64,000 nt of DNA, taken from Escherichia phage vB_EcoM_011D4. Positions 17,884-59,809 of the stretch are shown piece after piece. Positions within the stretch are counted from its first letter, which is position 1, and each line of letters begins with the position of its first letter. Location of the stretch: sequence record MT478991.1; one strand, 5' to 3'. A program made the translations under genes and the position numbers. The notes beneath the pieces were generated by a model that saw only the letters and a program-made list of their open reading frames with translations, was not told where the DNA came from and made no database searches.

Positions 17884-17905
17884 AAGAAAGGCCGCTTTGC
17901 GCGGC
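17884..17905 (-). terminator. possible weak terminator (GGCCGC-loop-GCGGCC, short U-tract)
   Basis: 6-bp GC stem after the stop of 17915..18241; only TTTCTT follows on the minus strand. Confidence 0.35.
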
Positions 17906-17914
17906 CTATGTTGA

Positions 17915-29122: not shown

Positions 29123-29647
29123 TTAGTAGCCGCGTTCTTGACGGGCGAAATTTTCAGCATTTTTCAGGTAGTACAGAATAAAGAGTTCTTGAGCGTCAAT
29201 ACCAAGCGGGATCATCTTTGACAGAATGAAGTGGACCGCGTCCACAAATTCAAATTTCACTTCAAGCTGATCTTCTGGTGACAGTTCAGAGAATTTACGC
29301 GCTCGCGCTTCCCCGTGGTTCTTTTTCCACATTTTCCAGATTGCACTTGCATCTTTACCATTGGACATTCCACCCAGCGATGTGTAAAGCTCTCGTGTTT
29401 CGTCTGCGATAGCGTCATCCATCCGTTGCATCCAATCCAGCATTTCACCGCAAGTCTCTAGCTTAGTTGGATTTGGGACCCAATCAAATTTTTCGGATAG
29501 TGCAACCTGCAAACCAGTTTGCATTTCTAGCATCACCTGAAACGGATCTTTACCTTCTGCAATCGCGTGATGATATGCGGCAATAGCCGCGTTAATATCT
29601 TTTTCGTTAACCAGACCAGCACAAGAATTAAATTCTGACATATTCAC
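29123..29647 (-). CDS. 56: dCTP/dUTP pyrophosphatase gp56-like
   Basis: Resembles T4 gp56 as recalled (KDPFQVML.MQ, KLET.G....WM, SPEDQLE.KFE.VD..HF.L, YYLKN.ENFARQ.RGY); adjacent to gene 61 as in T4. Confidence 0.7.
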   Translation of the reverse strand: MNMSEFNSCAGLVNEKDINAAIAAYHHAIAEGKDPFQVMLEMQTGLQVALSEKFDWVPNPTKLETCGEMLDWMQRMDDAIADETRELYTSLGGMSNGKDASAIWKMWKKNHGEARARKFSELSPEDQLEVKFEFVDAVHFILSKMIPLGIDAQELFILYYLKNAENFARQERGY

Positions 29648-34093: not shown

Positions 34094-35164
34094 TTATGCT
34101 AACATATCTTCGATTTCTTTGTCAACTGCTTCGTCGCTGATCACTTGTCCCAGCTTATAATGATCGTTGATTGCTTCGTTAAACTTATCGTTTGTCAGAA
34201 GTGGTTTCCAGAACTCAATACTATTGGTTTCTTTAGCACGGAACTTGCGTTCTTCGGTTTCCATCTCTCCGGTCTCAATATTCAGGATTGAACGAGAATA
34301 CCAGCCGTTTGACGGTTTCACTACCCAGCCTAACTCTACAGCCAACTCCAGCAAACCGGAATAAGGATCGATGCCACCGCTAAATGTTACGCTAATCGGG
34401 AACTTAGATTTTTCTTTAACGGTTCGTGATTTTTCCGCATTCAGGATAAAATCATAACCAGTAATTTCGGTTCCTTCTTTCTGCTGACGACGACCAATAA
34501 TGAAAACTTCATTGGCTGAATACATCGCGCCCGTACCGCCGGACATAACGGTCTTACTAAACATTTCTTGCGTTTCGTAAGTGTGGTTAATAGCGATGCA
34601 CGGGATATCATTCATAGTCAGATACGGCGTAACCATACGGAACAAGCCTTTAAGTGCTTTAGCTCGCGTCATATCCTGTGCGGATTTCTCATTAATCGCG
34701 TCTTCAACTTCTTTTTTACTTGCTAAGTTACCGATTGAGTCAATAAAGATGATCACTTTATCTTCACGGGTAATTTGCTCAAGCTGGTTCATGATTTCAA
34801 ATTTAAGTTCTTCGATGTTCTTGATTGGAACATGCACCACGCGATCAGGATCTACACCCATAGATTCAAGATAAGCGGGTGTAATACCGAACTCAGAATC
34901 AAAGAACAAACACGCCGCATCAGGATTCTGTTTCATGTATGCGCTAACGCAAGTTAATCCCATGTTTGATTTAAAGTGCTTAGATGGACCAGCAAAGAAA
35001 ATCAGACCAGATTGAAAGCCCTTTTTAAGATCACCTGAAAACGCAATATTCAGCATCGGGATCTTAGTGCGAGTATTTGTTTTTTCGTTAAAGAAGCTGG
35101 ATTTAGACAGTACCGCAGTAGTTTTCAGGGTAGAGTTCTTTTTCAGTTTTTCCAGTACAGACAT
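34094..35164 (-). CDS. uvsX: UvsX recombinase (RecA-like)
   Basis: Extensive identity to T4 UvsX (RTKIPM.NIA.SG, GPSK.FKSN.GLT, FYDSEFGITPAYL.SMGVDP.RV, AINHTYETQEMFSKTVM.GGTG.MYSA, KSRTVKEKSKF). Confidence 0.94.
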   Translation of the reverse strand: MSVLEKLKKNSTLKTTAVLSKSSFFNEKTNTRTKIPMLNIAFSGDLKKGFQSGLIFFAGPSKHFKSNMGLTCVSAYMKQNPDAACLFFDSEFGITPAYLESMGVDPDRVVHVPIKNIEELKFEIMNQLEQITREDKVIIFIDSIGNLASKKEVEDAINEKSAQDMTRAKALKGLFRMVTPYLTMNDIPCIAINHTYETQEMFSKTVMSGGTGAMYSANEVFIIGRRQQKEGTEITGYDFILNAEKSRTVKEKSKFPISVTFSGGIDPYSGLLELAVELGWVVKPSNGWYSRSILNIETGEMETEERKFRAKETNSIEFWKPLLTNDKFNEAINDHYKLGQVISDEAVDKEIEDMLA

Positions 35165-35175
35165 TATTAATACCT

Positions 35176-35403
35176 CTATTCAGTTAATCCGTAATACTTT
35201 AATTGCTTCATTGTTATTCGATCTTTGTAGTGCTCTTGAATTAACTTTTTCATCGCACCAACATCGATCGTCACAAATACTTCGTTGCTGTGATTTCCGT
35301 GAACTTTCTTGAAATGCTCTATGCCTTCCTCACGTTCACGTTTAATCTTTTCAATGTCTCTCATCGTATATTTCTCACGTTGGCGGGTATCGTCACCCAA
35401 CAC
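35176..35403 (-). CDS. hypothetical protein (about 62-75 aa)
   Basis: ORF track; the only ORF between uvsX and gene 43. Confidence 0.4.
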   Translation of the reverse strand: MLGDDTRQREKYTMRDIEKIKREREEGIEHFKKVHGNHSNEVFVTIDVGAMKKLIQEHYKDRITMKQLKYYGLTE

Positions 35404-35425
35404 CCGCCATTATACACACTTTATC

Positions 35426-38104
35426 TTAAATGTCAAACAGGTCCGTAAGCGATGCCACTTTTTCATATTGCAGCTTTGCAGCCGTGGTAATATTCTCCAG
35501 TGGTTTAACGAAAGTCTTATTAAACAACAAAGGCCAGTCTAACCACTTTAACACCTCGCTTTCAATTTCTGGTGGAATACGAGTACCAGACAACCAACCA
35601 AAACAGATTTCTCCAAACGGATTTCGATCTTTGAGCGGTACGATCATAACTTTCTCGCCCTCACGAATCGGATCTAGTCCAAATTTTCGAGCATTACGAT
35701 TATAACACAATACGCTCTTAACCGCATACGGACAACCCTTAATCGGATACCCGTTTGAATCGCTGTATTTCTGTAGGTTGTTTGCAGATGACACCGCAGC
35801 AACCTCAAGATAGTCAAGTTTTCTAAATTCTTGCTCAAAAATACCGTAGTATTCCTGCAATGACTCTTCACCTTCCTGCAACATACGACGAATACATTCT
35901 TTCAGTGATTTCTGACATGCTTTAGGCGTAGAGCTACGTTGCGTTTCCAAGCCCATGATTTTTAGCTTAGGTTCAGCAAAGCGCGTTCCTTCCATATCCC
36001 AAACATTAAGAGCATAACGCTTTTTACCAGTCCAGAATCCACCGATACCCGCAGATTTCAACGGAGGACCAGCAATTGCTTCACGGTCCATAAACATCAA
36101 GTGCTCATAGTTGTTCATGTACTCGCACAACTCTCGATATCCTTTGTCGATAATCGGTTCCATTCGATGTTTACCGAAATTATCAAGGAAGTCAACAAGT
36201 TTTTCGGTATCGTCGAAACGATCTTCCCCGCCAACCTTATCAACAACATTGTTAACCAGCACATAAACGGAGTCAGTATCACAATAACGAACATATGCAA
36301 AATCAGTTGTTCCGCAAAGCTCGTTTAAGTATTCGTTAATCTTACGCTCAATCCACTGAATTGCAAGCTGACCAAACAGTGTGATCGCACTAGCGTTACG
36401 GAGATCATAAAAGCGGAATTTAGGATTCCCCAACGCACCATAAAGGGAGTTGATCAAAACTTTACGAGAAAGCTGGTTTGTATTGCACAAGATCGACTCG
36501 TCTTTACATTCTTCCAGCAATTTTTCTAGGGTATCTTTGCTTAATTCCAAAAGCATAGATTTAAACGCTTCATCGAAGTCATGACGCACTTCAACGCTAT
36601 AGCTAATGGTTCCCCCATAAACATGATTTTCATCGTGTAGAATCGCTTTACATAGTTCAGCATTGCGATCACATGCCAACATCATGTTTTTGTACTGCTT
36701 ACGCTGATCGAATACCTTTTTAATCTCAATCGGTACGATACCATGAATATCTTTTCTATACATCCATCCGTTAGGCGAGCAAGAATACTCATCACTCGGA
36801 CGTGGTGCAGTTTTATTGATATACTCGTGCATCGGTGCAGCATCAAAAGATCCAGCGATAGTTTCGGGTGAAATATTTACCTGCCTAATTATTGAAGGAT
36901 ACAAACTCGTGAGATCGAAGCTCATCATCCAACGGTAAGCATTCGGCACAGGTTCTTTTACAAATGCGCCTGGATACGTCTGCTTAGGCTGTATCTTATT
37001 TTCCGGTACTACTTTACCCTCTGCTTTCAGAGATCCGAAGATAATAGCATCCCATACTTTCATCGGATTATAAACATGGTTAAATTTAATCTTTGCATAG
37101 AAACATAGGCTATACACCAGATCAATAAAACCACGCTTTTTATCAATCGCCAGCACACGGTCAACGTCGCCGATGTTATAATCGATGTAAAGTTGATGGT
37201 TGTCATCACGCAATTTCTTTAATGGACCATCATAATCAACCTTACCGATTCCTGTCTCATATTCAGCAACATAATCTAATGCATATGTTGGTTGAGTCGT
37301 AAAGCTAAATTTCTTGTACAGGTCAATATAATCAAGGCTTTCGATCCCCATGATCGTAAATGCTTCACGCTCGTTGCCAAAATCATCCTGTGAGATTCGG
37401 GATTTAATCTTACCGCACGGGCTTAATCGGTTTGCCGTTCGACTTCCAAACTTATTACTGATACGCTTAATGATATATGGAATATCGAATGTTTCTGTGT
37501 TCCAGCCAGTGAAGCCAACTGGTCGGTTTTCCTCAAAGAATCGGATGTATTCTAATAGCAATTCATCTTCTGTATCATAGACGTTATAAACAACGCGCTC
37601 TACAATATCAGGTCGAAGAATAGATTTGCTTGCTTCCCAGATTTCACCGTTCTTTCCTTTCAAATCAAATACAAAGAAACGATCATGTACGGAATCATAA
37701 TGCGTAATTGCATCGATAGGATATTTCGCTTCTTCTGGTTTAGGAAATTCTGGGGCAGTGACCTCAATATCAACCCACGCTACACGGATTTTATTTCGGT
37801 CATATCGAATCTCGCCTTTATATGTATCGGACAGATAGGAGATGATAAAATCATCCATCCCTAGTGCCTCTTGCCCCATTTCCCCCATCTTTTTACGCCA
37901 TTTGTTGGCCTCGTTCATAGATGGGAATTTTTTAGCAATGCAAGGCTTGCCATAGATATCTTTATAATTCGTAACCATACCAGGCGCGGCATGATGAAAT
38001 AAAGTTGGCGTATATTCAACGTAACGCTCTTGTTCTTGTCCAGCATCATCAATATAACGCTCGTAGATCTTATCACCTACTCGCTCACATGACAGAAAAT
38101 ACAT
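35426..38104 (-). CDS. 43: DNA polymerase gp43 (family B)
   Basis: Refined ATG at 38104 with GAAGGAG RBS (track start 38134 is GTG); extensive identity to T4 gp43 (ERYIDD, FTGWN, SFDLTSLYPSIIRQVNISPET, KILINSLYGALGN, YCDTDS, KKRYALNVWDME). Confidence 0.95.
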   Translation of the reverse strand: MYFLSCERVGDKIYERYIDDAGQEQERYVEYTPTLFHHAAPGMVTNYKDIYGKPCIAKKFPSMNEANKWRKKMGEMGQEALGMDDFIISYLSDTYKGEIRYDRNKIRVAWVDIEVTAPEFPKPEEAKYPIDAITHYDSVHDRFFVFDLKGKNGEIWEASKSILRPDIVERVVYNVYDTEDELLLEYIRFFEENRPVGFTGWNTETFDIPYIIKRISNKFGSRTANRLSPCGKIKSRISQDDFGNEREAFTIMGIESLDYIDLYKKFSFTTQPTYALDYVAEYETGIGKVDYDGPLKKLRDDNHQLYIDYNIGDVDRVLAIDKKRGFIDLVYSLCFYAKIKFNHVYNPMKVWDAIIFGSLKAEGKVVPENKIQPKQTYPGAFVKEPVPNAYRWMMSFDLTSLYPSIIRQVNISPETIAGSFDAAPMHEYINKTAPRPSDEYSCSPNGWMYRKDIHGIVPIEIKKVFDQRKQYKNMMLACDRNAELCKAILHDENHVYGGTISYSVEVRHDFDEAFKSMLLELSKDTLEKLLEECKDESILCNTNQLSRKVLINSLYGALGNPKFRFYDLRNASAITLFGQLAIQWIERKINEYLNELCGTTDFAYVRYCDTDSVYVLVNNVVDKVGGEDRFDDTEKLVDFLDNFGKHRMEPIIDKGYRELCEYMNNYEHLMFMDREAIAGPPLKSAGIGGFWTGKKRYALNVWDMEGTRFAEPKLKIMGLETQRSSTPKACQKSLKECIRRMLQEGEESLQEYYGIFEQEFRKLDYLEVAAVSSANNLQKYSDSNGYPIKGCPYAVKSVLCYNRNARKFGLDPIREGEKVMIVPLKDRNPFGEICFGWLSGTRIPPEIESEVLKWLDWPLLFNKTFVKPLENITTAAKLQYEKVASLTDLFDI

Positions 38105-38136
38105 AATATAAACTCCTTCACTTACGAAAGACACTC

Positions 38137-38165
38137 ATTATAGGGGAATCGACTTAGTTTGTCAA
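38137..38165 (-). promoter_or_regulatory. sigma70-consensus promoter TTGACA-17-TATAAT upstream of gene 43
   Basis: -35 at 38165..38160, -10 at 38142..38137; flanked by AGGGG/CCCCT inverted repeat. Confidence 0.6.
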
Positions 38166-38186
38166 TACCCCTATCCCATCAGTATC

Positions 38187-38549
38187 TTAGCGTCCGATCT
38201 GATATTTCTCGATCAGCGTCCACTCTTCTTTCTGTTTAAAAGACAGTACACGGAAATTATTAACTTCGGTAGTTTCAAAATCACTATCAATCAGGGTACA
38301 CAGATTCCACTGCGCCAGAAGTTTTGCAATGTTATTGCGGCGTAATTCATCTTCCCACGTCATTTTAACACTACGACCATCTAATTTCAACAACTCCTTG
38401 AAATGAACGATGTAATAGCGCCCTTTCTTCTGGAGAATATGACAAGACTGATACAGTGTCTTGTCTCGATTGTTGGCAATGCCGCAGCGGGTTAAAGTTT
38501 CCTTAATTTTAAGGAAGTTTTCAGGACTAATCAAATTAATTTCAATCAT
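38187..38549 (-). CDS. regA: translational repressor RegA
   Basis: High identity to T4 RegA (MIEI.L..PE.FLK.KETLTR.GIAN..DK.LYQSCHILQKKG.YYIVHFKE). Confidence 0.9.
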   Translation of the reverse strand: MIEINLISPENFLKIKETLTRCGIANNRDKTLYQSCHILQKKGRYYIVHFKELLKLDGRSVKMTWEDELRRNNIAKLLAQWNLCTLIDSDFETTEVNNFRVLSFKQKEEWTLIEKYQIGR

Positions 38550-38550
38550 T

Positions 38551-39129
38551 TTACCACCTTTCTATAATCTTTTTAAGTCGTTTCCTTTCTGTCTGATTCT
38601 TAGTAACACCCGCCAAAAGTTCATCGGTCGCATACGGTTTAATGTGCTTCAATAACTTGTCCATATATCCCTTTTCATTAGCCAAATCGAGATAAAACCG
38701 GGCGTCATCCATATTTACACAATATGCTTTCGCCACTGCCGTTAAAACCAATTTTTGGTCCAATTCTTCTGTTAGTTTAGCCCATTTACCGTATCGTTTC
38801 CCCTTAGAAATACTCTGTAAGAGATAATCAAAATGCATTTGATCTGGGAGGCCATGACCGATTAAATTCATCACATACGCGCTATATAGGCAATCTGCGT
38901 GCTGGGAAAGAGCGGTGTTAATCCATCTCTGGTTATATGCAGAATTGTTTCCCACATTAACGCGCTGTTTATCTAAGGTGATATGATCCATCAGAGCAAA
39001 TAATGCATTGTCGGTTTTCTCGGTGAATGTATCCGCTAATTCAGACACCTTTTCCCAATCACGAGAGCGCCATGCAATTTCATGCTCGTTTAATTGTGTA
39101 TCATCTTCACCGAAAAATTGACCTAACAT
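38551..39129 (-). CDS. 62: clamp loader small subunit gp62
   Basis: Size and position (regA-62-44-45 order as in T4). Confidence 0.8.
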   Translation of the reverse strand: MLGQFFGEDDTQLNEHEIAWRSRDWEKVSELADTFTEKTDNALFALMDHITLDKQRVNVGNNSAYNQRWINTALSQHADCLYSAYVMNLIGHGLPDQMHFDYLLQSISKGKRYGKWAKLTEELDQKLVLTAVAKAYCVNMDDARFYLDLANEKGYMDKLLKHIKPYATDELLAGVTKNQTERKRLKKIIERW

Positions 39130-40103
39130 TATACGAACTCCAATTCAACCATTAATTGCATTAACAAAAAGACAATGTGAATCTCTTTATCAGCCGCGTG
39201 CGCAAACATCTGATTATTTTCACCGATGATCTCAGTGAGACGAATAATCGACGCTGGCTTAACTTGAGTATATAACTCATTATAAAGTTTCTTGACAAAT
39301 TGAGCGTATGTATTGGTATATCGCGGTGCAAGTTTACGCACATTAGCAAACTGTTTAGTTTTAAGTGCTTCCACTACATCGGTTACTTCGGTATTGCTAC
39401 TTTCGATAACCATGCTCAATACGCCAGCATCAATTTTACCGTGTTTTGCGTAACGGTCCAAGAGTTTCATTACGCGCCGGAAATCTGGGAAGTTCTGCTT
39501 AACCAGTTCCGCCAATACGCGCATTTCTTCTACTGGAACACCTTCTTTATCAAGAATTGCTTTACACCGGACGATCATTTCTTTCATCATGCGAAGCTGA
39601 TCATCTTTAGTCGGAGATCCAAACGTGATTGGATCAAATCGAGATCTCAACGCTGGGATAACACCTTCTAGATCGTTTGCTGTGATAATGAAGGTCACAT
39701 TGTTTGAGTATGCCTCAGAGAAACTACGCAAGTGTCTTTGAGCATCAGCCAGCCCCGCTCGGTCATACTCATCGATAATAACAACTTTGCCTTTTTCTCG
39801 TTTTTCTTCATCGAGTGATACACTCTGCGCAAAGCGTGTAATCTCATCGCGGATAAAATCAATCTTACAATCTGCGCCGTTAACAAACAGATAATCAACA
39901 CCAACATCTTCACAAAGCGCCTTAGCAACGGTTGTTTTACCAGTACCTGGCGATGGGCTATGCAGAATCATTGAAGGGATTCGGCCTTGCTTAACGATCT
40001 GCGCGAAGATCTTTTTATCTGCTTCCGGCAGAATACATTCAGAAATTGATTTCGGACGGTATTTCTGTTCCCACTGAAACTCATTTTCATTAACACTCAG
40101 CAT
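39129..40103 (-). CDS. 44: clamp loader large subunit gp44 (AAA+ ATPase)
   Basis: Refined ATG at 40103 with AGAGGTGA RBS; identity to T4 gp44 (EQKYRP, SPSPGTGKTTVAKAL, VIIDE.DR.GLA..QRHLRSF.EAYS). Confidence 0.9.
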   Translation of the reverse strand: MLSVNENEFQWEQKYRPKSISECILPEADKKIFAQIVKQGRIPSMILHSPSPGTGKTTVAKALCEDVGVDYLFVNGADCKIDFIRDEITRFAQSVSLDEEKREKGKVVIIDEYDRAGLADAQRHLRSFSEAYSNNVTFIITANDLEGVIPALRSRFDPITFGSPTKDDQLRMMKEMIVRCKAILDKEGVPVEEMRVLAELVKQNFPDFRRVMKLLDRYAKHGKIDAGVLSMVIESSNTEVTDVVEALKTKQFANVRKLAPRYTNTYAQFVKKLYNELYTQVKPASIIRLTEIIGENNQMFAHAADKEIHIVFLLMQLMVELEFV

Positions 40104-40131
40104 ATAATCACCTCTCACAAATTACATCATT

Positions 40132-40155
40132 AAAAAGGGGAGTTTTATACTCCCC
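40132..40155 (-). terminator. rho-independent terminator (GGGGAGT-tttat-ACTCCCC + TTTTT)
   Basis: 7-bp stem and U-tract on the minus strand between genes 45 and 44. Confidence 0.65.
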
Positions 40156-40167
40156 ACAATCATTATA

Positions 40168-40857
40168 TTAGTCGGTGTAGCTGGAGTCAAGGTCACACGC
40201 GATCATGTAAGACACGGTTTCACTTGCCAGCCATACAGCCTTACGGCGAGTGAAGCTCAATTTGTAATCGCCGAAGTCGGTAGCAACCAGTTTCATGTTG
40301 TCTTTACGAATAAAGAAATGGAAGTCGGCGGTTCCTGCATATTCGCCCATATCAAGACAAAACATCTCATTAGGATTGTTTTTGTCAATCTCTTCCCAGC
40401 CTTTGATCATCAGACGGCCATCAATCGGTAGAAATTCAAGGCGGTCCACTTTAAGCTGATTGCTCATTTTCATAAGCTGTTTCAGATCGTCGTTGCTCAG
40501 TTCGTAATCCACATCGCTTGCAGGTGGAGTAACTCGGCCTTTCGGTGATACGATAGCAGCAGCACTAGCACCAGGATAATTAATTTTCAGACGATCATTA
40601 GACACACGAATGTTTCCGGTGCGGTTATCAACCGTAATATCTGCTTCATCGCCTACCAGATTCAGAATACCCAAGAAAGAGTTAAGATCATAGATCCCAA
40701 TTTCGTGTTCCAGTTCTTGATTCAGAGTCGCTTCACCATATACAACGTTTGTCATGTTTTTGGTGATCAGGACGTTTCCTTTTTTCAGGATGATACCTGG
40801 GTTAATAGCGGAAAAGTTTTTCAGGGTAGCAATGGTTTCTTTAGTCAGTTTCATCAA
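40168..40857 (-). CDS. 45: sliding clamp gp45
   Basis: N-terminal identity to T4 gp45 (MKL.K.T.A.LKNF..IN.GI.LK.G); size 229 versus 228 aa. Confidence 0.88.
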   Translation of the reverse strand: MMKLTKETIATLKNFSAINPGIILKKGNVLITKNMTNVVYGEATLNQELEHEIGIYDLNSFLGILNLVGDEADITVDNRTGNIRVSNDRLKINYPGASAAAIVSPKGRVTPPASDVDYELSNDDLKQLMKMSNQLKVDRLEFLPIDGRLMIKGWEEIDKNNPNEMFCLDMGEYAGTADFHFFIRKDNMKLVATDFGDYKLSFTRRKAVWLASETVSYMIACDLDSSYTD

Positions 40858-40884
40858 ATCACCTTTATCATGTTAATCAATTAA

Positions 40885-41283
40885 TTACGGGTTTACTTCG
40901 TGCTCATTTTGAATCTTTAGCATTCTTTCGATAAATTTTTTCTCGGCTTCCTTGTCGGAGGAGTGAGTATACTTCAATCCAATGTAAGCTGTCAAGTATT
41001 GTTGCAGTGCATAGACAGTAACAGGATTCTTTGCGGTCTTTTTGCCGTCGAGATATACCAGATCACCACGAACATCAAACGCAAGTTTACGACGAATCAC
41101 ATCATCAACAAATTTATCTAGGACAAAATACCACTCAATACACTCTATCCCGTGACGGTAGTTCATTACATCATTATCTTTGATATAATCAAACGGAATA
41201 TGACATAATTTACTATTTTGTAGGATGAATAGCATTTGTTCTTTTAAGCTCATACGTTTCATTCTATCACTTCCCATCAGCAA
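40885..41283 (-). CDS. RpbA-position protein (132 aa)
   Basis: Position and size only (T4 RpbA 129 aa follows gene 45); no motif verified. Confidence 0.4.
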   Translation of the reverse strand: MLMGSDRMKRMSLKEQMLFILQNSKLCHIPFDYIKDNDVMNYRHGIECIEWYFVLDKFVDDVIRRKLAFDVRGDLVYLDGKKTAKNPVTVYALQQYLTAYIGLKYTHSSDKEAEKKFIERMLKIQNEHEVNP

Positions 41284-41659
41284 TTGCGATCAGACGAGTT
41301 ACTACTACGCTAGCGGCTTCAATCAGCAGTTCATCAGTGTCAATCTGATAACTTTTTTCGAGAATATCTTTACCTCGAATAGTTTTAGCGCCTTTAGCAA
41401 TTGAATCATCGTAATACTTGCGCATTGCAGCGATCCATTCTTTTTGCACCATATCATCAATATGAGCGTACAGTTCAAAGCGTGCTTGCTGCGGGATAAC
41501 CTTCATTTTAGCTTTCTCGCTTTCTGGCATTTGTAGTACCCACGCTTTACGGATCTTGTTCATTGCTCGGTCAAATTCGAGACTGGTTTTCTTGTTCTGA
41601 ATGTCTGCTACAGTAATTTTAGCCAGGTTTGCGGAAGTAGTCATAATATTAATCTCCAA
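41267..41659 (-). CDS. hypothetical protein (130 aa)
   Basis: ORF track. Confidence 0.5.
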   Translation of the reverse strand: MEINIMTTSANLAKITVADIQNKKTSLEFDRAMNKIRKAWVLQMPESEKAKMKVIPQQARFELYAHIDDMVQKEWIAAMRKYYDDSIAKGAKTIRGKDILEKSYQIDTDELLIEAASVVVTRLIAIADGK

Positions 41660-41674
41660 AATAAAATCAGTATA

Positions 41675-41905
41675 TCACGTTCTAAAGTTTGTTGCAACCC
41701 CAGCATCAGGGTAATCAAGTTTATCAAATTTGGGGACCAGCATAAACTCATGATGACGACAAGACAACATTTTTGTTATGTCTTCATCGCTGTATATGCT
41801 GTTTTTCATATCCCCCATACTAACTACATATTCTTCACCGGAATATAGATTGATTAATGTATACAATTCTAACTCCGGCTGCGTTACTCTGTCAAATGTT
41901 AACAT
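41675..41905 (-). CDS. hypothetical protein (76 aa)
   Basis: ORF track. Confidence 0.45.
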   Translation of the reverse strand: MLTFDRVTQPELELYTLINLYSGEEYVVSMGDMKNSIYSDEDITKMLSCRHHEFMLVPKFDKLDYPDAGVATNFRT

Positions 41906-43589
41906 TCATTTCAGTGAATCGCCCACGTTTAACCATCTTGAGATGACGGCTAAAATCATCAGGGTTATGGTCACGATGGCTGATAATATACACGTTATCA
42001 TCTAACTTGTCAATGATGGAATCAAGTGCTTTTACGCCTTGAACGTCAGTAGCCCCATCATAGATTTCATCGAGTACCAACAAAGAAATATTAGTACCAG
42101 ATACTTTACCAGCAACATCACGCCATGTAAAGAGCATCGCAAGATCAATACGTGCTTTTTCGCCTTGACTGAATGATGTATACGAAAACGATTCACGCCC
42201 CCGTGATTTGATTGTTTCGTTAAACTCTTCATCTAACGTAAAGATATAATCCGCTTCCATGATCTCCAGATAATAAGCAATTCGATCATTGAAATATGGA
42301 ATATATTTCTTGACGATAGACGCCTTAACACCGGAATCCTTCAACATTTCTGTTACAAATCCGCGATGATATTTTTCAAGAACTAGTTTTGATTTTTCAT
42401 TGGTAATCTCTACCAGTTCGTGTTCCAGTTTAGCAAGTTCTTCGGAATTGTCAACCCTTTCTTTTTGTAATTCCTGAATTGCTTTCTGGATCTGTTTAGC
42501 CCGACCTACAGATGCCGTTAAATTAGCTCTCTGTGACTCTATAGCGCGTTTAATTTCCAAGACCTTAGTTTGTGCTGTCTGGAAAGAATTGGCTTTCTCT
42601 GCGTATTCTACGCGCTTCTCGTCAATCAGAGACAGCTTATGTTCTGCTTGTGCTTTTTGCTCGCGCACCGCTTGATCATTACCTTGAATGATCGGTTGTG
42701 TACACGTCGGACAAACCCCGCCTTTCTCGTGCATATGGATAACACGGTCAAAGTTCTGGATCTGCGCACCAATCTGAGCAATAGCAGTATTGATTTTAGC
42801 CAATGCCGCGCTGGGGTCTTCCGGCATAACAACAGCCAATAGCTCATCGGTCAAGCGCGTTTCTTCGGCTTTAAATGCTTTAGCCGATTCTACCTCTTTA
42901 TCATACATATTCTGTAAACGCTGGAGATTCTCGGCACTCGCCTTGCTAGCGTCTTCTATGTACTTTTTATGAGTGTTGATTTGTTGCTGAACGTGATTAG
43001 CTTTCATTTCCTGCATTTGGATATTCTGGGTAATCTCGCGCACATATGCTTTATTCAGTTTATCCATTTCGCCTAGCGTAGCAATATCAAGCAAATCCTC
43101 GACCAGCTTACGGCGACCCGCTGCCGGAAGACTCATAAACGGAACATAACCAGCAGTGCCTAAAACAACGATCTGTTTAAAGCTGGCTAGGTTCATGCCT
43201 ATGATACCTTCAAAATATTCCTGAAAGTCTTTGGTGCTTGCGCTCTCGTCGATCTTTTGACCGTCGCGATGCACTTCGAATACTTCCGGCTTTTGACCAC
43301 GTTTGATATAAAACTCTTTCCCGTCCAGTTCAAACCAGACTTCGACTAACAGTTTCTTTTTGTTGACGCTGTTAATCAATTGGCCTTTCTTGATACTACG
43401 AAACGGTTTACCAAACAACACAAAGCAAAGCGCCTCGATCATTGTTGATTTACCAGCACCGTTAACACCAGTGATTAGTGTCTTTTTGAATCCGTCTAGC
43501 TGAATCTCAACAGGTTCAGCACCCACGCTCATTATATTTTGATAGCGCAAGGTTTTAAAATTTAACTTTGCCATTAATCCACTCCGCAA
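41892..43589 (-). CDS. 46: recombination endonuclease subunit gp46 (Rad50/SbcC-like ATPase)
   Basis: N-terminal Walker A GVNGAGKST, coiled-coil middle with CPTC zinc hook, C-terminal signature/Walker B; 565 versus 560 aa in T4. Confidence 0.9.
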   Translation of the reverse strand: MRSGLMAKLNFKTLRYQNIMSVGAEPVEIQLDGFKKTLITGVNGAGKSTMIEALCFVLFGKPFRSIKKGQLINSVNKKKLLVEVWFELDGKEFYIKRGQKPEVFEVHRDGQKIDESASTKDFQEYFEGIIGMNLASFKQIVVLGTAGYVPFMSLPAAGRRKLVEDLLDIATLGEMDKLNKAYVREITQNIQMQEMKANHVQQQINTHKKYIEDASKASAENLQRLQNMYDKEVESAKAFKAEETRLTDELLAVVMPEDPSAALAKINTAIAQIGAQIQNFDRVIHMHEKGGVCPTCTQPIIQGNDQAVREQKAQAEHKLSLIDEKRVEYAEKANSFQTAQTKVLEIKRAIESQRANLTASVGRAKQIQKAIQELQKERVDNSEELAKLEHELVEITNEKSKLVLEKYHRGFVTEMLKDSGVKASIVKKYIPYFNDRIAYYLEIMEADYIFTLDEEFNETIKSRGRESFSYTSFSQGEKARIDLAMLFTWRDVAGKVSGTNISLLVLDEIYDGATDVQGVKALDSIIDKLDDNVYIISHRDHNPDDFSRHLKMVKRGRFTEMNVNI

Positions 43590-43818
43590 TCACACATTCC
43601 ATAATATTAAATGCTAACACATCTTCATCAATGTTGTAAACACTTGCAGCCTTCACTTTAACTAGTGTGTCTCTGCGATCTGGCAACATGATCACATAAT
43701 CCAGCGTCGCCGGATCATATGTCATAAAGGGATCAATGTAAATCCCTTTATTCAATGCCAGATATTCGCGAAGACCTTCTATAACCCTGTGTCTAAGGTA
43801 GGTCATCGATAGAATCAT
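43555..43818 (-). CDS. hypothetical protein (87 aa)
   Basis: ORF track; between 46 and 47. Confidence 0.45.
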   Translation of the reverse strand: MILSMTYLRHRVIEGLREYLALNKGIYIDPFMTYDPATLDYVIMLPDRRDTLVKVKAASVYNIDEDVLAFNIMECVIAEWINGKVKF

Positions 43819-44411
43819 TTTAGTTTATGTTCCTCTAAAAATTCTTCAATTTCACCTTGCAGGTCTTCCGCTTGCTGTTCCAGAATATCGCGAAATTCAC
43901 CTACAGTCAAGCGGTGATCACATTTCACCAGTCTATGCGGGAGAATATACCCCTTGTACATTGTCTCTGACGCTTCCAGGAATACCCCGCTATGCATGAC
44001 AGAGATCCAACCTGTTAGAGTCAATGGAGTATTCGGAAAATAATATTTGCTGGATTGTTTCCACTGGACGAAAGCACCATATACAATCGGATTATATTCA
44101 CCAACCACACTCTTAATAATAGCTTCTACTTTGTCTTTTACAAATACGCCCATATCCATATTGATCATCAATTCTTGTGGATGTACCACTTTAAGATAAC
44201 GATGATAACCATCATCATAATACAGCTTAACCACTGGCTGACCCCACGTAGATGAAATATTCGCTTTCAGATAACCATAAATCGGATTCTTGTAATGTGA
44301 TTGTTTTATCGTGTAGTTATGCAACAGCGTAATAAAATGTTGCATTACCAGTTTATCTGGATCAGCCGCGACCATAGTCGTATTCATAATATGTTCCCCC
44401 TTCAATCTCAT
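43815..44411 (-). CDS. hypothetical protein (198 aa)
   Basis: ORF track. Confidence 0.55.
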   Translation of the reverse strand: MRLKGEHIMNTTMVAADPDKLVMQHFITLLHNYTIKQSHYKNPIYGYLKANISSTWGQPVVKLYYDDGYHRYLKVVHPQELMINMDMGVFVKDKVEAIIKSVVGEYNPIVYGAFVQWKQSSKYYFPNTPLTLTGWISVMHSGVFLEASETMYKGYILPHRLVKCDHRLTVGEFRDILEQQAEDLQGEIEEFLEEHKLK

Positions 44412-44679
44412 ATTGTTTCAGGTCTTCTAAAAGTTCATCCATTGCTTGTTTCAGCACATGACGCAGCGTAAAATAATAGCTTTCATCAAATTCTATTTCA
44501 TCGCGAGGAATAGAGCGAAACTTACACTTAACGGTAGTGTCAGTGAGTCGCTTTTCGAGCATCATACGAACTTCTTCATGATCTTTGGAATACCATACAT
44601 CAACGGAGATCCCCTTACGGCGAGCAAACATAGGCAACGCTGCATTAAATTCCATTACTTTTTGTGCAAGTGTTTTCAT
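44362..44679 (-). CDS. hypothetical protein (105 aa)
   Basis: ORF track. Confidence 0.5.
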   Translation of the reverse strand: MKTLAQKVMEFNAALPMFARRKGISVDVWYSKDHEEVRMMLEKRLTDTTVKCKFRSIPRDEIEFDESYYFTLRHVLKQAMDELLEDLKQYEIEGGTYYEYDYGRG

Positions 44680-44927
44680 CGTACAGACTCCATAGACCCA
44701 CGAGCAATAACATTCTGGGTAATATCAGCAACCTTACGGGATACGATGGTTGCTAGTTCCAGTCTAGTGATATTGTCTCGGTCGAAAGGAATTTCATCAT
44801 GTGTCCACATCCCGTAATTAGAACGGAAGGATAGCATATGTTGACCATTCCGAACAACCTCAAAAACTCGGATCTTAGTAAACTTCTCTAAACTTGCGTT
44901 AAATTCTTTCAGTGTGTCAGTAATCAT
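44676..44927 (-). CDS. hypothetical protein (83 aa)
   Basis: ORF track; GGGAGG RBS; preceded by PeSL. Confidence 0.5.
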   Translation of the reverse strand: MITDTLKEFNASLEKFTKIRVFEVVRNGQHMLSFRSNYGMWTHDEIPFDRDNITRLELATIVSRKVADITQNVIARGSMESVR

Positions 44928-44951
44928 AATAACCTCCCATCAATTTTAGAG

Positions 44952-44980
44952 AGTATAACGGGGATTTCTCCCCGCGTCAA
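44952..44980 (-). promoter_or_regulatory. PeSL-type early promoter: TTGACG-17-TATACT with GGGGA/TCCCC stem
   Basis: -35 at 44980..44975 abutting the gp47 stop; -10 at 44957..44952. Confidence 0.5.
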
Positions 44981-46006
44981 CTAACTTTTTGCGCTATTTA
45001 CTTCGGCTAAAAGTTCATCAGAGATACGCTTAACTGCCGCAAGTTCTTCCGGTTCTAGGTTTTGTTCTTCCAGATATTCATAGACCATCTGAATAGTGCT
45101 TTTAACTTCAATAACACCTGTTTCCTGTGATGCGCTACTCTCCAGCTTATGGACAACTTTTAGCTTATGCACAACGGCTTCTAACGCGCTTTCTAACTTA
45201 GTTAACCCATTATCAGCGACCGTTGCAATTAGGCGCACACTAAGCCCTTTAAAGCGTTCTACATCGATTTTATCATCTGACGGGTAAGCGATACGCACAT
45301 GATAAGTTTTGTCATTCTGGATAAACTCCTTTTTGTGTGTATCTGTATCGAATACCCAAAAACCACGCGGATCATTTTCGTCGCCAGCCGTTAGTGTGTA
45401 TGGTGTACCGATATACGTTACGTTACCGCCATCACTGATAGTATGAAAGTGACCGGAAAACACTTCACGGTATTTCTTGAGGAAGTCCGCGCTATAACCT
45501 TCGGATTTTAACCCTTTATAGAAATAGTAGCCGGACAATTCCCAATGGCCTACACAATATTCGCTGAATGAATTTTGAATAAACTCTAAAACCTCGGATT
45601 TATTGTCATCACAAAACCACGGGAACAGGTCGAATGATACCCCATCAAAGGTAACTGTTTCCGGCTTATCAATAACCTTAATGCAATCATACTGGCTTAA
45701 CACTTCGCGCGGTGCGTTAGGCTGGATCTTATTGCGTTTAAACATATCATGATTCCCGACCGTGATATAACAGGTGATTCCTGCCTCTTCCAGTAATGGG
45801 ATGACCTTAGTACGGTTAAATTTCATGGTTTCATGTGTGATAGCCTTGCGACAATCAAACCAATCCCCTGTTTGAATCCATATCTTAATACCGTTTTCTT
45901 TAGAATAATCAACAGCTTTCTTGATCGTGTCTAAAATATACTCATGCACCCACGGATCATCGCCACCGATACCAGTATGCAGATCACCCAAAAGCAAAAT
46001 TTTCAT
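44981..46006 (-). CDS. 47: recombination endonuclease subunit gp47 (Mre11/SbcD-like phosphoesterase)
   Basis: N-terminal MKILLLGDLHTG calcineurin-like motif; 341 versus 339 aa in T4. Confidence 0.9.
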   Translation of the reverse strand: MKILLLGDLHTGIGGDDPWVHEYILDTIKKAVDYSKENGIKIWIQTGDWFDCRKAITHETMKFNRTKVIPLLEEAGITCYITVGNHDMFKRNKIQPNAPREVLSQYDCIKVIDKPETVTFDGVSFDLFPWFCDDNKSEVLEFIQNSFSEYCVGHWELSGYYFYKGLKSEGYSADFLKKYREVFSGHFHTISDGGNVTYIGTPYTLTAGDENDPRGFWVFDTDTHKKEFIQNDKTYHVRIAYPSDDKIDVERFKGLSVRLIATVADNGLTKLESALEAVVHKLKVVHKLESSASQETGVIEVKSTIQMVYEYLEEQNLEPEELAAVKRISDELLAEVNSAKS

Positions 46007-46050
46007 AGTCTCTTCCTCTCTTCGTTTTCGATGCTCTCACTATATCATAG

Positions 46051-46085
46051 AAAAATAAAAAGGGAAACCCCTTTCGGAGTCTCCC
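46051..46085 (-). terminator. rho-independent terminator (10-bp stem with two G-U pairs + UUUUUAUUUUU)
   Basis: On the minus strand GGGAGACUCC-gaaa-GGGGUUUCCC then a long U-tract, between 46097..46384 and gene 47. Confidence 0.65.
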
Positions 46086-46096
46086 TTATAAAGCCA

Positions 46097-46384
46097 TTAC
46101 AGCATACTTAATACCGTTTGCCGTGTACTAATCCACATAGCAGAAAGCAGTTCTGGCGTGTGTGGCTGTTTGTAGATATCACGTAACTTTCCGATAGCGT
46201 AGATATACGCATCACGGTTATCATCGATGATAGCTTGTTCAGCCCACCGCTTAAGGCGTGCAATCTCTCGCGAGTTCTTACGCAAGATCTTTTCCGCTTT
46301 CTTAGCGGCTTTAGCCTCTAGTTCTGCTTGTACTTTGTCTACTTCATTCACTGCAATCTGGTCATGCTGTTCATCGTAAGTCAT
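46097..46384 (-). CDS. hypothetical protein (95 aa)
   Basis: ORF track. Confidence 0.5.
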   Translation of the reverse strand: MTYDEQHDQIAVNEVDKVQAELEAKAAKKAEKILRKNSREIARLKRWAEQAIIDDNRDAYIYAIGKLRDIYKQPHTPELLSAMWISTRQTVLSML

Positions 46385-46620
46385 GTTATTTTTCCTTCTG
46401 GGATATAATCAATTATTAAAGAAAATTCATCTTCTGATACATTATAGCTATGTGAGATTGTACCCGTAAAGACCTCAAGATCCGGTGATTTGATATTGCA
46501 CGGATCGATAATCACCGGAACGCCGCAATCTCTCAAAAATAATTTGGCGAAATACGGCACGAGGTCAGTTTCAAACTCTGCTTCTTCCAGCAAACGGGAA
46601 ATGTTAATTTTCAATCTCAT
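46381..46620 (-). CDS. hypothetical protein (79 aa)
   Basis: ORF track. Confidence 0.5.
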
Positions 46621-47137
46621 AAAATTGGTCCAGGCTAGGCAATTCCTCGGTCAATACATCTTCAACCTTTGGCGCTTTCGGTTTATTGACCGATTCCTCG
46701 TAGTTGTTGATTTTATCGTAAATGTCCTGTATGAATGCCTCATCAGCAATCTGGCACATATCAGCGTCGCGTTCGTCATATACATGATGCACAAAATATT
46801 TGTATTTTGCGGCTGTCGCTGTTCTCTCTTTTTTAATGCGCTGTACAAAAGCATTAAAGCACGCTTGCGTGATGTAAGCATGAGGATTTTTATACTTTGT
46901 CTCGTCAAAATTAATCAAACCCTTGACCGCCGCTTCGATTCCGTCGTCGATCATTTCTTCGCGCCATGTTTGACTATAGCCAGAAAAGTTAAAACGTCGT
47001 GATAGATTTTTTGAGATTTGCATAATTGCCAGGCCAATTTGATCGCTCATTGGCACTTGCCGACCTTCGGCTGCAATTCGTTGTTTCCAACGGCAAATTT
47101 CTTCGTAAAGCTCTTTATTGTTTACATAATCAGACAC
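46604..47137 (-). CDS. 55: late-transcription sigma factor gp55
   Basis: Very high identity to T4 gp55 (IGLAIM.I...[52 protein letters not shown]); apparent GTG start with GAGGG RBS. Confidence 0.93.
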
Positions 47138-58706: not shown

Positions 58707-59000
58707 TTAACCATGAATCTTGTTTTTGACTACAAAGGATCGGAACTCATCAAAGCCACCAATATAATCACCATCATAGAAAATCTGCGGCATGGTGGCA
58801 ATAACTTCTACCCCTGCGCGATCCTGAATATCGGCAATGATAGAATCAATCTTTACGGGGCGACCGTTTTCGTCAACACCATCATTAACCGGAATGTAGA
58901 TGTAAGGGATCTTACGCGATTCACAAAGGCGCTTTGCATTCTGGCAATACTTACAGTTGTAACCTTCAAAACCAAAAATTTCTACCATATTATACCTCAA
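58707..59000 (-). CDS. nrdC: glutaredoxin/thioredoxin NrdC
   Basis: C.YC.NAKRL and MPQIF.DG..IGGFD motifs shared with T4 NrdC. Confidence 0.8.
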   Translation of the reverse strand: MRYNMVEIFGFEGYNCKYCQNAKRLCESRKIPYIYIPVNDGVDENGRPVKIDSIIADIQDRAGVEVIATMPQIFYDGDYIGGFDEFRSFVVKNKIHG

Positions 59001-59809
59001 TCTACGTTAGTTACATAAACTTCTTGCGTATCAGAAGACTTGCCACCTGAACGGTCTAGGCAATAGGTCTTATTCAACAGGACGCAGTTTAAATCATTCC
59101 GCTTGATAAAGTCAAGAAGATGATCGTTTACCTTTCCCTTATGATGCGTGACATTACTGATACCAAACTGAAAACCACGCGCCATAATAGATTCCACCCA
59201 CCGATAGAATTTAATCTCTTCCTCGTCACTCCAGAACTTATTATATTCCGCAGAAGTGATAAGGTACGGCGGGTCCAAATAAACGAAATCACCTGGCAAG
59301 ATCTCGATCTCGTCATAACGACCAGACGTAAAACTGATTCGACCGTCTTTGTTTTCTTCCTTAAAATTCAGGACACGCTCTACCGCGTTTTCGTTAAAAG
59401 TCCGGCGACCAAAATTAGCATTAAATTCGCCCTTTCGGTTATGGCGGTTAATGTTGCTAAAACTGTGCTGAATCAACACAAACAGCGATAGCGGATCTGG
59501 ATTCTCGTTATACTTCTTACGGAATGCCATGTAAGCGTCTTTATCATCACGAGACAAACCATTTTCGGAAATAATCCGATTGATTGTAGAAACCGGATCA
59601 GGACACGCATCAATGGCCTTGTAAGCGTCAATTAAACGATGGTCATAGTCATTAGCCAGCACATCACCTTCGACGTACAGAGACACGCTCAAACCGCCAC
59701 AAAAGGCATCAACAAAGCGGTTATAGTGCTTAGGGAAATACTTACTAACACCTGGCAATAGCTTTTCCTTATTGCCAGTATAGGGAATTAAACCTAATGC
59801 TTTCTTCAT
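58997..59809 (-). CDS. dam: DNA adenine methyltransferase (Dam-type N6-MTase)
   Basis: N-terminal SAM-binding F.GG (DAFCGGLSV) and catalytic DPPY motif; 270 aa versus T4 Dam 259 aa. Confidence 0.88.
   Translation of the reverse strand: MKKALGLIPYTGNKEKLLPGVSKYFPKHYNRFVDAFCGGLSVSLYVEGDVLANDYDHRLIDAYKAIDACPDPVSTINRIISENGLSRDDKDAYMAFRKKYNENPDPLSLFVLIQHSFSNINRHNRKGEFNANFGRRTFNENAVERVLNFKEENKDGRISFTSGRYDEIEILPGDFVYLDPPYLITSAEYNKFWSDEEEIKFYRWVESIMARGFQFGISNVTHHKGKVNDHLLDFIKRNDLNCVLLNKTYCLDRSGGKSSDTQEVYVTNVD

What the first reader, a model, noticed from the sequence alone, without database searches (positions are those of the whole stretch)
34094..47137. Hydroxymethylcytosine/glucosylation module and middle-mode regulators are absent from their T4 positions
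In T4, beta-gt, gene 42 (dCMP hydroxymethylase) and imm lie between uvsX and gene 43; alpha-gt lies between 47 and 55; denB lies between rIIB and 52; asiA and motA lie between t and 52. Here uvsX is separated from gene 43 by only one small ORF, 47 and 55 are separated by two small ORFs, the rIIB-52 interval holds only an acidic protein, a 97-aa protein and a membrane protein, and none of the ORFs between t and gp52 has MotA-like size or character. A gp56-like dCTPase/dUTPase and Dam methyltransferase are nevertheless present. This is consistent with a T4-type phage with unmodified or differently modified cytosine and no MotA/AsiA middle mode, relying on sigma70-type promoter cassettes instead. 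Absence is shown only for this window.
Basis: partly seen in the sequence, partly recalled or inferred. Interest (0 to 1): 0.45.

Follow-up and report, generated by a model that had tools for sequence, protein, structure and literature searches.

The report
RB49-like phage lacks T4 hmC/MotA genes
The window is part of an RB49-type (Krischvirus) relative of phage T4, and the missing hydroxymethylcytosine, glucosylation and MotA/AsiA genes are a real but long-published hallmark of that phage group, so the finding is correct and ordinary.

Summary
The window is a Krischvirus (RB49-like coliphage). Interval 34094-47137 is 98.8% identical to phage ELT3 and 96.4% to RB49, with full synteny.

T4 proteins find every flanking core gene at 32-65% identity: uvsX, 43, regA, 62, 44, 45, rpbA, 46, 47, 55, 52, rIIB, t, 56 and dam. 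They find nothing for beta-gt, 42, imm, alpha-gt, denB, ndd, arn, asiA or motA.

Those genes, plus alc and motB, are also missing from three complete Krischvirus genomes (RB49, ELT3, SAP). They have not simply moved outside the window.

The MotA-box middle-promoter motif is enriched in T4 but sits at chance level here. Perfect sigma70 consensus promoters occur 8 times on the coding strand (0 expected), several with GGGG/CCCC stem-loops. These match the published "PeSL" cassettes.

All of this is in the literature:
- Nolan 2006 and Petrov 2010 report the gene absences.
- Yaung 2014 shows RB49 DNA is cut by cytosine-modification-sensitive enzymes.
- A 2026 study finds canonical cytosine in Krischvirus TB34 by LC-MS.

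One open wrinkle remains. The same 2026 study reports hmC-type bases in SAP, a 99.96%-identical sibling of TB34, without any known pathway genes.

Verdict: confirmed, interpretation supported, already known, low interest.

The parts
34094..35164 (-). uvsX recombinase
   Evidence: 64% identity to T4 UvsX over 350 aa; syntenic with RB49p024.
35176..35364 (-). The single ORFan (62 aa) between uvsX and gene 43. It occupies the place of T4 segA, b-gt, 42, imm and imm.1.
   Evidence: PHROG 12120, unknown function. No significant Pfam hit. Homologue of RB49p025.
35409..35436 (-). Perfect sigma70 consensus promoter (TTGACA-16-TATAAT) followed by a GGCGGGT/ACCCGCC stem-loop. A PeSL-type early promoter for the ORFan and uvsX.
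   Evidence: RB49 annotates an early promoter at the same place.
35426..38134 (-). Gene 43 DNA polymerase
   Evidence: 55% identity to T4 gp43 over 903 aa.
38137..38165 (-). Perfect sigma70 consensus promoter upstream of gene 43, with a GGGG...CCCC inverted repeat across the spacer.
   Evidence: RB49 early promoter annotation.
38187..40857 (-). regA (38187-38549), 62 (38551-39129), 44 (39129-40118), 45 (40168-40857). A promoter plus terminator-like stem-loop lies at 40137-40190.
   Evidence: 65%, 42%, 53% and 33% identity to the T4 proteins; promoter and terminator scan.
40885..41905 (-). Krischvirus ORFan (40885-41283), rpbA (41267-41659) and a 45.2-like ORF (41675-41905).
   Evidence: PHROG 16137, unknown function. 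Pfam Phage_RpbA E=1e-41; Gp45_2 E=0.0015, which is below Pfam's threshold.
41892..43589 (-). Gene 46 recombination nuclease subunit
   Evidence: 51% identity to T4 gp46.
43555..44927 (-). Four Krischvirus ORFans (87, 198, 105 and 83 aa) between 46 and 47, in place of T4 46.1 and 46.2.
   Evidence: PHROGs 14972, 16328, 15856 and 15867, all of unknown function. No T4 homologue.
44981..46006 (-). Gene 47 recombination nuclease subunit
   Evidence: 56% identity to T4 gp47.
46097..46620 (-). a-gt.4 homologue (46097-46384) and a-gt.5 homologue (46381-46620). These are the only ORFs between 47 and 55. T4 47.1, a-gt, mobB, a-gt.2 and a-gt.3 are missing.
   Evidence: tblastn 44% and 32% identity. Pfam DUF2654 E=1e-22; DUF5491 E=4e-4.
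46604..47137 (-). Gene 55 late sigma factor
   Evidence: 61% identity to T4 gp55.
10310..10966 (+). Holin t, the landmark for the asiA-motA interval.
   Evidence: 48% identity to T4 T.
11002..15860 (-). Block of 14 ORFs between t and 52, with no AsiA, Arn or MotA homologue.
   Evidence: Pfam at E<=1 shows no AsiA, MotA_activ or MotCF domain. The nine ORFs scanned against PHROGs all fall in families of unknown function. tblastn with T4 asiA, arn and motA is negative.
15857..17218 (-). Gene 52 topoisomerase II subunit
   Evidence: 51% identity to T4 gp52.
17211..18241 (-). Three ORFs between 52 and rIIB: a 120-aa membrane protein, a 97-aa protein and a 108-aa acidic protein. They stand in place of T4 52.1, ac, stp, ndd and denB.
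   Evidence: pI and hydropathy. PHROGs 16033, 14759 and 14049, all unknown function. No denB or ndd hit.
18256..19257 (-). rIIB
   Evidence: 44% identity to T4 rIIB.
29123..29647 (-). Gene 56 dCTPase/dUTPase homologue
   Evidence: 49% identity to T4 gp56 across 171 aa. PHROG 173 NTP pyrophosphohydrolase. Pfam dUTPase_2.
58997..59809 (-). Dam N6-adenine methyltransferase. It lies next to nrdC here, not next to gene 56 as in T4.
   Evidence: 47% identity to T4 Dam. Pfam MethyltransfD12 E=1.5e-29.

Best explanation
The window is a 64-kb stretch of a Krischvirus (RB49-type, 'pseudo-T-even') coliphage genome. This lineage keeps the T4 replication/recombination core in T4 order: uvsX-43-regA-62-44-45-rpbA-46-47-55.

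It has never carried, or has lost, the whole T4 network built around hydroxymethylcytosine. That network comprises gene 42, the glucosyltransferases, the dC-DNA-directed functions denB and alc, and arn. It also lacks ndd and imm, and the MotA/AsiA sigma-appropriation system.

Its DNA therefore most likely contains ordinary cytosine, plus Dam GATC methylation. This step is inferred for this isolate; it has been shown experimentally for RB49 and TB34.

gp56 is retained together with Cd, Td and gp1. Inferred role: nucleotide-pool sanitation and dUMP/dTMP supply, rather than dCTP exclusion.

Pre-replicative genes are read from strong sigma70-consensus early promoters, many embedded in stem-loop 'PeSL' cassettes. 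Late genes are read through gp55/gp33/gp45, with no MotA-dependent middle class. The motifs are shown here; the transcription pattern is inferred and published for RB49.
For: Identity of the phage:
- 96-99% nucleotide identity with 100% coverage to 58 Krischvirus genomes.
- Gene-for-gene synteny with RB49.

Absences:
- No hit in the window for b-gt, 42, imm, a-gt, asiA, arn, motA, ndd or denB, while all flanking orthologues are found.
- The same negatives, plus alc and motB, across complete RB49, ELT3 and SAP genomes. Gene 42 hits only the td paralogue, at E between 5e-4 and 0.01.
- Pfam and PHROG scans of the filler ORFs show no MotA or AsiA domains.

Promoters:
- MotA-box motif on the sense strand: 10 in T4 versus 2.25 expected (strict form 5 versus 0.17). 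In the window, 1 versus 1.0 expected (strict form 0).
- Perfect TTGACA-N16-18-TATAAT: 8 on the window's coding strand, 0 on the antisense strand, 0 expected, and 0 in T4.

Literature: PMC1524935, PMC2993671 (Table 4), PMC4041780, PMC2839356, PMC12115623; PMC13390438 for TB34.
Against: - No direct chemistry exists for this isolate.
- One Krischvirus, SAP, was reported to carry 5-hmdC and glucosylated/gentiobiosylated hmdC despite lacking all known pathway genes (PMC13390438). Gene absence may therefore not be a perfect predictor in this genus.
- Retaining a gp56 dCTPase homologue and DenA in a dC-DNA phage is not mechanistically explained.
- Many ORFans of unknown function could hide non-homologous regulators.
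Confidence: 0.9

Rival explanations
1. The hmC, glucosylation and MotA/AsiA genes exist in this phage but have moved to the part of the genome outside the 64-kb window.
For: The window covers only about 39% of a roughly 164-kb genome. Dam shows that T4 genes can sit at different positions here.
Against: Three complete Krischvirus genomes that are 96-99% identical to the window have no such genes anywhere, by six-frame tblastn. Published gene inventories agree (PMC2993671, PMC12115623).
Confidence: 0.02
2. Cytosine is modified after all, by a pathway unrelated to gp42 and the T4 glucosyltransferases, as claimed for Krischvirus SAP. The gene absence would then reflect replacement rather than loss of function.
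For: PMC13390438 reports 5-hmdC and alpha-glucosyl/gentiobiosyl-hmdC in SAP DNA, and BrxU sensitivity. I confirmed that the deposited SAP genome lacks 42 and the gt genes. gp56 is conserved. Many ORFans have unknown function.
Against: - TB34, 99.96% identical to SAP, has canonical cytosine, and the authors found no candidate gene (PMC13390438).
- RB49 DNA is cut by HpaII and NheI (PMC4041780).
- SAP's modification profile is the same as that of seven Tequatrovirus phages in the same collection. A mixed or mislabelled DNA preparation is therefore the simpler reading; this is my inference, not something shown.
- No thymidylate-synthase-family paralogue other than td is found.
Confidence: 0.05
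3. A middle-mode switch exists but is run by non-homologous factors hidden among the ORFans, for example in the t-52 block, acting on promoters that do not resemble Mot boxes.
For: - 14 uncharacterised ORFs sit where asiA, arn and motA sit in T4.
- The RNA-polymerase modifiers Srd, ModB and RpbA are retained.
- AsiA homologues without MotA exist in other T4-type phages (PMC1524935).
Against: - There is no AsiA or MotA domain.
- The ORF at the asiA position is Tad2-like, and the only MotA-sized ORF is a secreted LprI-domain protein.
- Replication genes carry consensus sigma70 promoters directly upstream.
- Earlier searches for a middle consensus in RB49 failed (PMC1524935).
Confidence: 0.1

Closest known systems
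Escherichia phage RB49 and the genus Krischvirus (RB49, phi1, JSE, ELT3, ELT4, TB34, SAP)
   Same: - 96-99% nucleotide identity and identical gene order across the whole interval.
- The same single ORFan between uvsX and 43.
- The same a-gt.4 and a-gt.5 pair between 47 and 55.
- The same three ORFs between 52 and rIIB.
- The same sigma70-consensus early promoters.
   Different: Only homing-endonuclease content and a few ORFans in the t-52 hyperplastic patch differ. The window lacks RB49's HNH-AP2 gene between 47 and a-gt.4. It also lacks the ELT3/SAP endonucleases between 61 and 56.
Phage T4 (Tequatrovirus) hmC/glucosylation network and MotA/AsiA middle mode
   Same: The core replication, recombination and late-transcription genes are present in the same order, at 33-65% protein identity. 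gp56, Dam, and in close relatives Cd, DenA and gp1, are also present.
   Different: - No 42, a-gt, b-gt, imm, denB, alc, arn, ndd, asiA, motA or motB.
- No Mot-box enrichment.
- Consensus sigma70 early promoters instead of T4-type early and middle promoters.
PeSL (promoter-early stem-loop) cassettes of RB49/phi1 (Arbiol et al. 2010, PMC2839356)
   Same: TTGACA/TATAAT consensus promoters on the coding strand. GGGG/CCCC-type stem-loops lie between, over or just after the hexamers, immediately upstream of small ORFs.
   Different: Nothing differs as far as was tested. Promoter activity and mini-circle formation were not tested for this isolate.

Membership tests
Krischvirus (RB49-like T4-type phages) | High nucleotide identity and collinearity with RB49 and other genus members | tested here: met
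   The interval is 96.4% identical to RB49 and 98.8% to ELT3 at 100% coverage. The rest of the window is 94-98% identical.
Krischvirus (RB49-like T4-type phages) | About 40% G+C and no tRNA genes | tested here: met
   G+C is 0.37-0.46 in 2-kb windows, mostly near 0.40. There are no tRNAs in the 64 kb. PMC7552041 notes that krischviruses lack tRNAs.
T4 hydroxymethylcytosine pathway | dCMP hydroxymethylase (gp42) | tested here: not met
   No hit in the window. In complete RB49, ELT3 and SAP genomes only the td paralogue is hit, at E between 5e-4 and 0.01.
T4 hydroxymethylcytosine pathway | DNA glucosyltransferases (a-gt, b-gt) | tested here: not met
   No tblastn hit below E=0.5 in the window or in the three complete genomes.
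T4 hydroxymethylcytosine pathway | dC-DNA exclusion functions (denB, alc) and arn | tested here: not met
   No significant hit. This agrees with Table 4 of PMC2993671.
T4 hydroxymethylcytosine pathway | gp56 dCTPase/dUTPase | tested here: met
   49% identity over the full length, at 29123-29647. The enzymatic specificity was not tested.
T4 hydroxymethylcytosine pathway | hmC or glucosyl-hmC in virion DNA | not testable with these tools
   Published data: RB49 is cut by HpaII and NheI (PMC4041780). TB34 has canonical C, while SAP is reported as modified (PMC13390438).
T4 MotA/AsiA sigma appropriation (middle mode) | MotA activator (MotA_activ and MotCF domains) | tested here: not met
   tblastn is negative genome-wide. 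There is no Pfam MotA domain in the t-52 ORFs at E<=1.
T4 MotA/AsiA sigma appropriation (middle mode) | AsiA anti-sigma co-activator | tested here: not met
   tblastn is negative. The ORF at the syntenic position is Tad2-like, not AsiA.
T4 MotA/AsiA sigma appropriation (middle mode) | Mot-box middle promoters (TGCTTnA, 11-13 nt, TAnnnT) upstream of early and middle genes | tested here: not met
   The window has 1 on the sense strand versus 1.0 expected, and 0 for the strict form. The T4 positive control has 10 versus 2.25, and 5 versus 0.17 for the strict form.
PeSL early-promoter cassettes | Sigma70-consensus -35/-10 hexamers with an adjacent G/C stem-loop, on the coding strand upstream of ORFs | tested here: met
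   8 perfect and 11 near-perfect matches lie on the coding strand of the minus-strand gene block (10967-64000), against about 0-0.3 expected. Stem-loops are visible at 35409, 38137, 40137-40190, 56033, 58177 and 22628.

The most novel reading that the evidence does not exclude
This isolate, like the reported Krischvirus SAP, might replace cytosine with hmC-type bases by a pathway that has no gp42 or glucosyltransferase homologue. The 'missing module' would then mark an undiscovered DNA-hypermodification route encoded among the Krischvirus ORFans or borrowed from the host.
Probability: 0.04. Interest if true: 0.85.

Novelty: already known. Interest (0 to 1): 0.1.

Why it matters
It matters mainly as a correct identification. 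The window belongs to a T4-type lineage with ordinary cytosine DNA and a two-stage (sigma70 early, gp55 late) transcription programme.

This has practical consequences that are already discussed in the literature:
- The DNA should be sensitive to classical restriction enzymes and to Cas9.
- The phage should be insensitive to type IV enzymes such as McrBC and GmrSD.
- It should have a higher capacity for generalized transduction.

Nothing new about biology follows from the finding itself. The only open thread is the unexplained report of modified DNA in Krischvirus SAP.

Tried and rejected
- **Relocation of the missing genes.** Six-frame tblastn of 22 T4 proteins against complete RB49, ELT3 and SAP genomes was negative.
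- **Hidden MotA or AsiA among ORFans.** Pfam at E<=1 and PHROG scans of the larger t-52 ORFs (10 and 9 of 14) and of the three 52-rIIB ORFs gave only unknown-function families, a Tad2-like hit and an LprI-like hit. phmmer against PDB sequences for the two most suggestive ORFs found nothing.
- **A second thymidylate-synthase-family enzyme that could make hmdCMP.** Only td is found. In RB49 it is a 410-aa protein with a genuine thymidylate synthase domain split by an insert.
- **Candidate glycosyltransferases among the larger unknown ORFs downstream of gene 55.** None was found. The 489-aa ORF is helicase-like.
- **Collection-wide tblastn with gp42.** It returned 1504 records, but organism names do not separate Krischvirus from other coliphages, so it was uninformative for the genus.
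- **Structured RNAs and tRNAs.** Rfam and tRNA scans of the window found nothing.
- **Desplats et al. 2002 (the RB49 'snapshot' paper).** It is not held in the library. Its conclusions are cited only through PMC1524935 and PMC2993671.
Full report
**Identity of the window**

A megablast of 34094-47137 against 50,697 phage records finds 64 records. In 58 of them a single place covers at least 80% of the query, and 59 have their best place at 95-99% identity. All are RB49-like coliphages of the genus Krischvirus. ELT3 is 98.8% identical and RB49 96.4%, both at 100% coverage. The neighbouring 10000-34000 stretch behaves the same way. G+C is about 40%, and there are no tRNA genes or Rfam matches. 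The annotated RB49 genome is collinear with the window.

**Checking the observation**

- segA, b-gt, 42, imm and imm.1 lie between uvsX and 43.
- 47.1, a-gt, mobB and a-gt.2 to a-gt.5 lie between 47 and 55.
- denB and ndd lie between rIIB and 52.
- asiA, arn and motA lie between t and 52.

I translated 63 T4 genes from these regions and ran tblastn against the window. Every core landmark is recovered:

| T4 gene | Identity in window |
|---|---|
| uvsX | 64% |
| 43 | 55% |
| regA | 65% |
| 62 | 42% |
| 44 | 53% |
| 45 | 33% |
| rpbA | 37% |
| 46 | 51% |
| 47 | 56% |
| 55 | 61% |
| 52 | 51% |
| rIIB | 44% |
| t | 48% |
| 56 | 49% |
| dam | 47% |

There is no hit at E<=1e-3 for segA, b-gt, 42, imm, imm.1, 47.1, a-gt, mobB, a-gt.2, a-gt.3, asiA, arn, motA, ac, stp, ndd or denB.

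What fills each interval:
- The only ORF between uvsX and 43 is a 62-aa ORFan at 35176-35364.
- The two ORFs between 47 and 55 are homologues of T4 a-gt.4 and a-gt.5.
- The three ORFs between 52 and rIIB are an acidic 108-aa protein (pI 4.1), a 97-aa protein, and a 120-aa protein with a hydrophobic segment. This is exactly as described.

One detail needs correcting. A 252-aa ORF between t and 52 (13264-14022) is of MotA-like size. It has a signal peptide and an LprI-like domain and no MotA domain.

**Extending the absence beyond the window**

I assembled the complete genomes of RB49 (164,018 bp), ELT3 (163,510 bp) and SAP (165,332 bp) from fetched pieces. I then searched them in six frames with T4 b-gt, 42, imm, a-gt, asiA, arn, motA, motB, ndd, denB and alc.

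None gives a significant hit. Gene 42 touches only its paralogue td, at E between 5e-4 and 0.01. In contrast, 56, dam, denA, cd, srd, 33, 55 and dsbA are all found. The negative result is meaningful because gp42 is conserved at 55-73% identity in other T4-type genera.

**What occupies the vacated positions**

Pfam and PHROG scans show that the filler ORFs are Krischvirus-specific proteins of unknown function. None carries an AsiA, MotA_activ or MotCF domain. The ORF directly after t, where asiA sits in T4, matches the Tad2-like (DUF2829) family above Pfam's threshold.

**Promoters**

I used the T4 1-50 kb early region as a positive control for the Mot-box middle-promoter pattern TGCTTnA-N11-13-TAnnnT.

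| Motif | T4 sense strand | Window sense strand |
|---|---|---|
| Mot-box, relaxed | 10 (2.25 expected) | 1 (1.0 expected) |
| Mot-box, strict | 5 (0.17 expected) | 0 |
| Perfect TTGACA-N16-18-TATAAT | 0 | 8 (0 expected; 0 on the antisense strand) |

Inside the finding's interval, perfect or near-perfect sigma70 sites lie upstream of the uvsX-proximal ORFan (35409-35436), of gene 43 (38137-38165) and of gene 44 (40162-40190). G/C-rich stem-loops are attached to them. They coincide with the early promoters annotated in RB49. TATAAATA late motifs occur only ahead of the plus-strand tail-fibre genes, at 365 and 5476.

**Comparison with the literature**

- Nolan et al. 2006 (PMC1524935) report that neither a motA orthologue nor a middle-promoter consensus could be found in RB49. 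They also report that AsiA orthologues exist in RB69, 44RR, Aeh1 and KVP40 but not in RB49.
- Petrov et al. 2010 (PMC2993671, Table 4) list gene 42, denB and alc for the T-even, JS98, RB69, CC31, Acinetobacter and some Aeromonas phages only. They list the glucosyltransferases and arn for T-even types and CC31 only. gp56 is present in all but the giant phages.
- Yaung et al. 2014 (PMC4041780) state that RB49 lacks the hydroxymethylase and glucosyltransferase. They show its DNA is cut by HpaII and NheI, which fail on T4.
- Arbiol et al. 2010 (PMC2839356) describe about 50 PeSL cassettes per genome in RB49 and phi1. Each combines a sigma70-consensus promoter with a stem-loop.
- A 2025 review (PMC12115623) repeats that Krischvirus lacks the hmC transferase, endonuclease IV and ndd, and links this to plasmid transduction.

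The finding is therefore a correct rediscovery of a textbook property of this genus.

**The one loose end**

A 2026 study (PMC13390438) measured nucleosides by HPLC-MS. Krischvirus TB34 has canonical cytosine. SAP, 99.96% identical to TB34, was reported to contain 5-hmdC and alpha-glucosyl/gentiobiosyl-hmdC and to be BrxU-sensitive. The authors found no 42 or gt homologue and no explanatory SNP.

I confirmed that the deposited SAP sequence lacks these genes. SAP's modification profile equals that of seven Tequatrovirus phages in the same collection. I consider a mixed or mislabelled preparation more likely than a cryptic pathway. That is my inference and has not been shown, so I keep the cryptic-pathway reading as the low-probability novel case.

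**Mechanism**

Shown here:
- The gene content, the synteny and the promoter motifs.

Established for close relatives:
- Unmodified cytosine in RB49 and TB34.
- Functional PeSL promoters.

Inferred for this isolate:
- dC-containing, Dam-methylated DNA.
- gp56 acting with Cd, Td and gp1 in dUTP sanitation and dTMP supply rather than in dCTP exclusion.
- A programme of sigma70-dependent early transcription, modulated by Alt, ModB, Srd and RpbA, followed by gp55/gp33/gp45 late transcription without sigma appropriation.

How DenA spares the phage's own dC-DNA, and why a dCTPase homologue is tolerated, remain unexplained.

**Verdict**

The feature is already known and of low interest.

Noticed in passing
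window 11002-11250 (-): The 82-aa acidic ORF immediately after holin t, at the position of asiA in T4, matches Pfam Tad2-like/DUF2829 (Thoeris anti-defence 2). E=3.4e-6 and 27.9 bits, above the 25-bit cut-off. It also matches PHROG 1048. No PDB sequence match was found.
   Followed up: partly
window 13264-14022 (-): A 252-aa ORF with a clear signal peptide (MKNIIAAIVLSATAFGANA) and an N-terminal LprI (lysozyme-inhibitor) domain, E=4e-5. It is probably a secreted or periplasmic protein sitting in the early-gene block between t and 52.
   Followed up: partly
window 47178-48647 (-): A 489-aa ORF directly downstream of gene 55 with a DEAD-box-like helicase N-domain (E=3e-6). It belongs to PHROG 2467, of unknown function. 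It is conserved in RB49 (RB49p044), ELT3 and SAP and has no T4 counterpart at that place.
   Followed up: partly
window ~46007, ~29640 and ~59000-59090: Homing-endonuclease genes present in relatives are absent from the window. These are the RB49 HNH-AP2 gene between 47 and a-gt.4, the ELT3/SAP gene between 61 and 56, and the ELT3 gene between dam and nrdC. Several other relatives carry a roughly 1.1-kb insertion that splits gene 43 in the megablast.
   Followed up: partly
window 12978-15100, especially 14100-14720: This patch between t and 52 has no megablast match in RB49 or SAP (14100-14720), nor in ELT3 (12978-15100). It is a hyperplastic ORFan region that differs between near-identical phages.
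   Followed up: no
window 22659-24482 (-): The topoisomerase II large subunit is a single 607-aa ORF. T4 splits it into genes 39 and 60, the latter with the translational bypass; here the two parts are uninterrupted.
   Followed up: no
L006 41870-43102 (RB49 td, outside the window); L007 27190-27600 (ELT3 denA): RB49 td encodes 410 aa, with the thymidylate-synthase domain in two stretches separated by an insert of roughly 140 aa. ELT3 denA aligns to T4 DenA in two different frames, which suggests a frameshift or a sequencing error.
   Followed up: no
L012-L015 (phage SAP, OZ034687.1): The deposited genome of SAP has no homologue of T4 42, a-gt, b-gt, denB, alc, motA or asiA in six-frame search. 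SAP is the one Krischvirus reported to carry hmC-type bases. The published anomaly therefore stands unexplained at the sequence level.
   Followed up: yes
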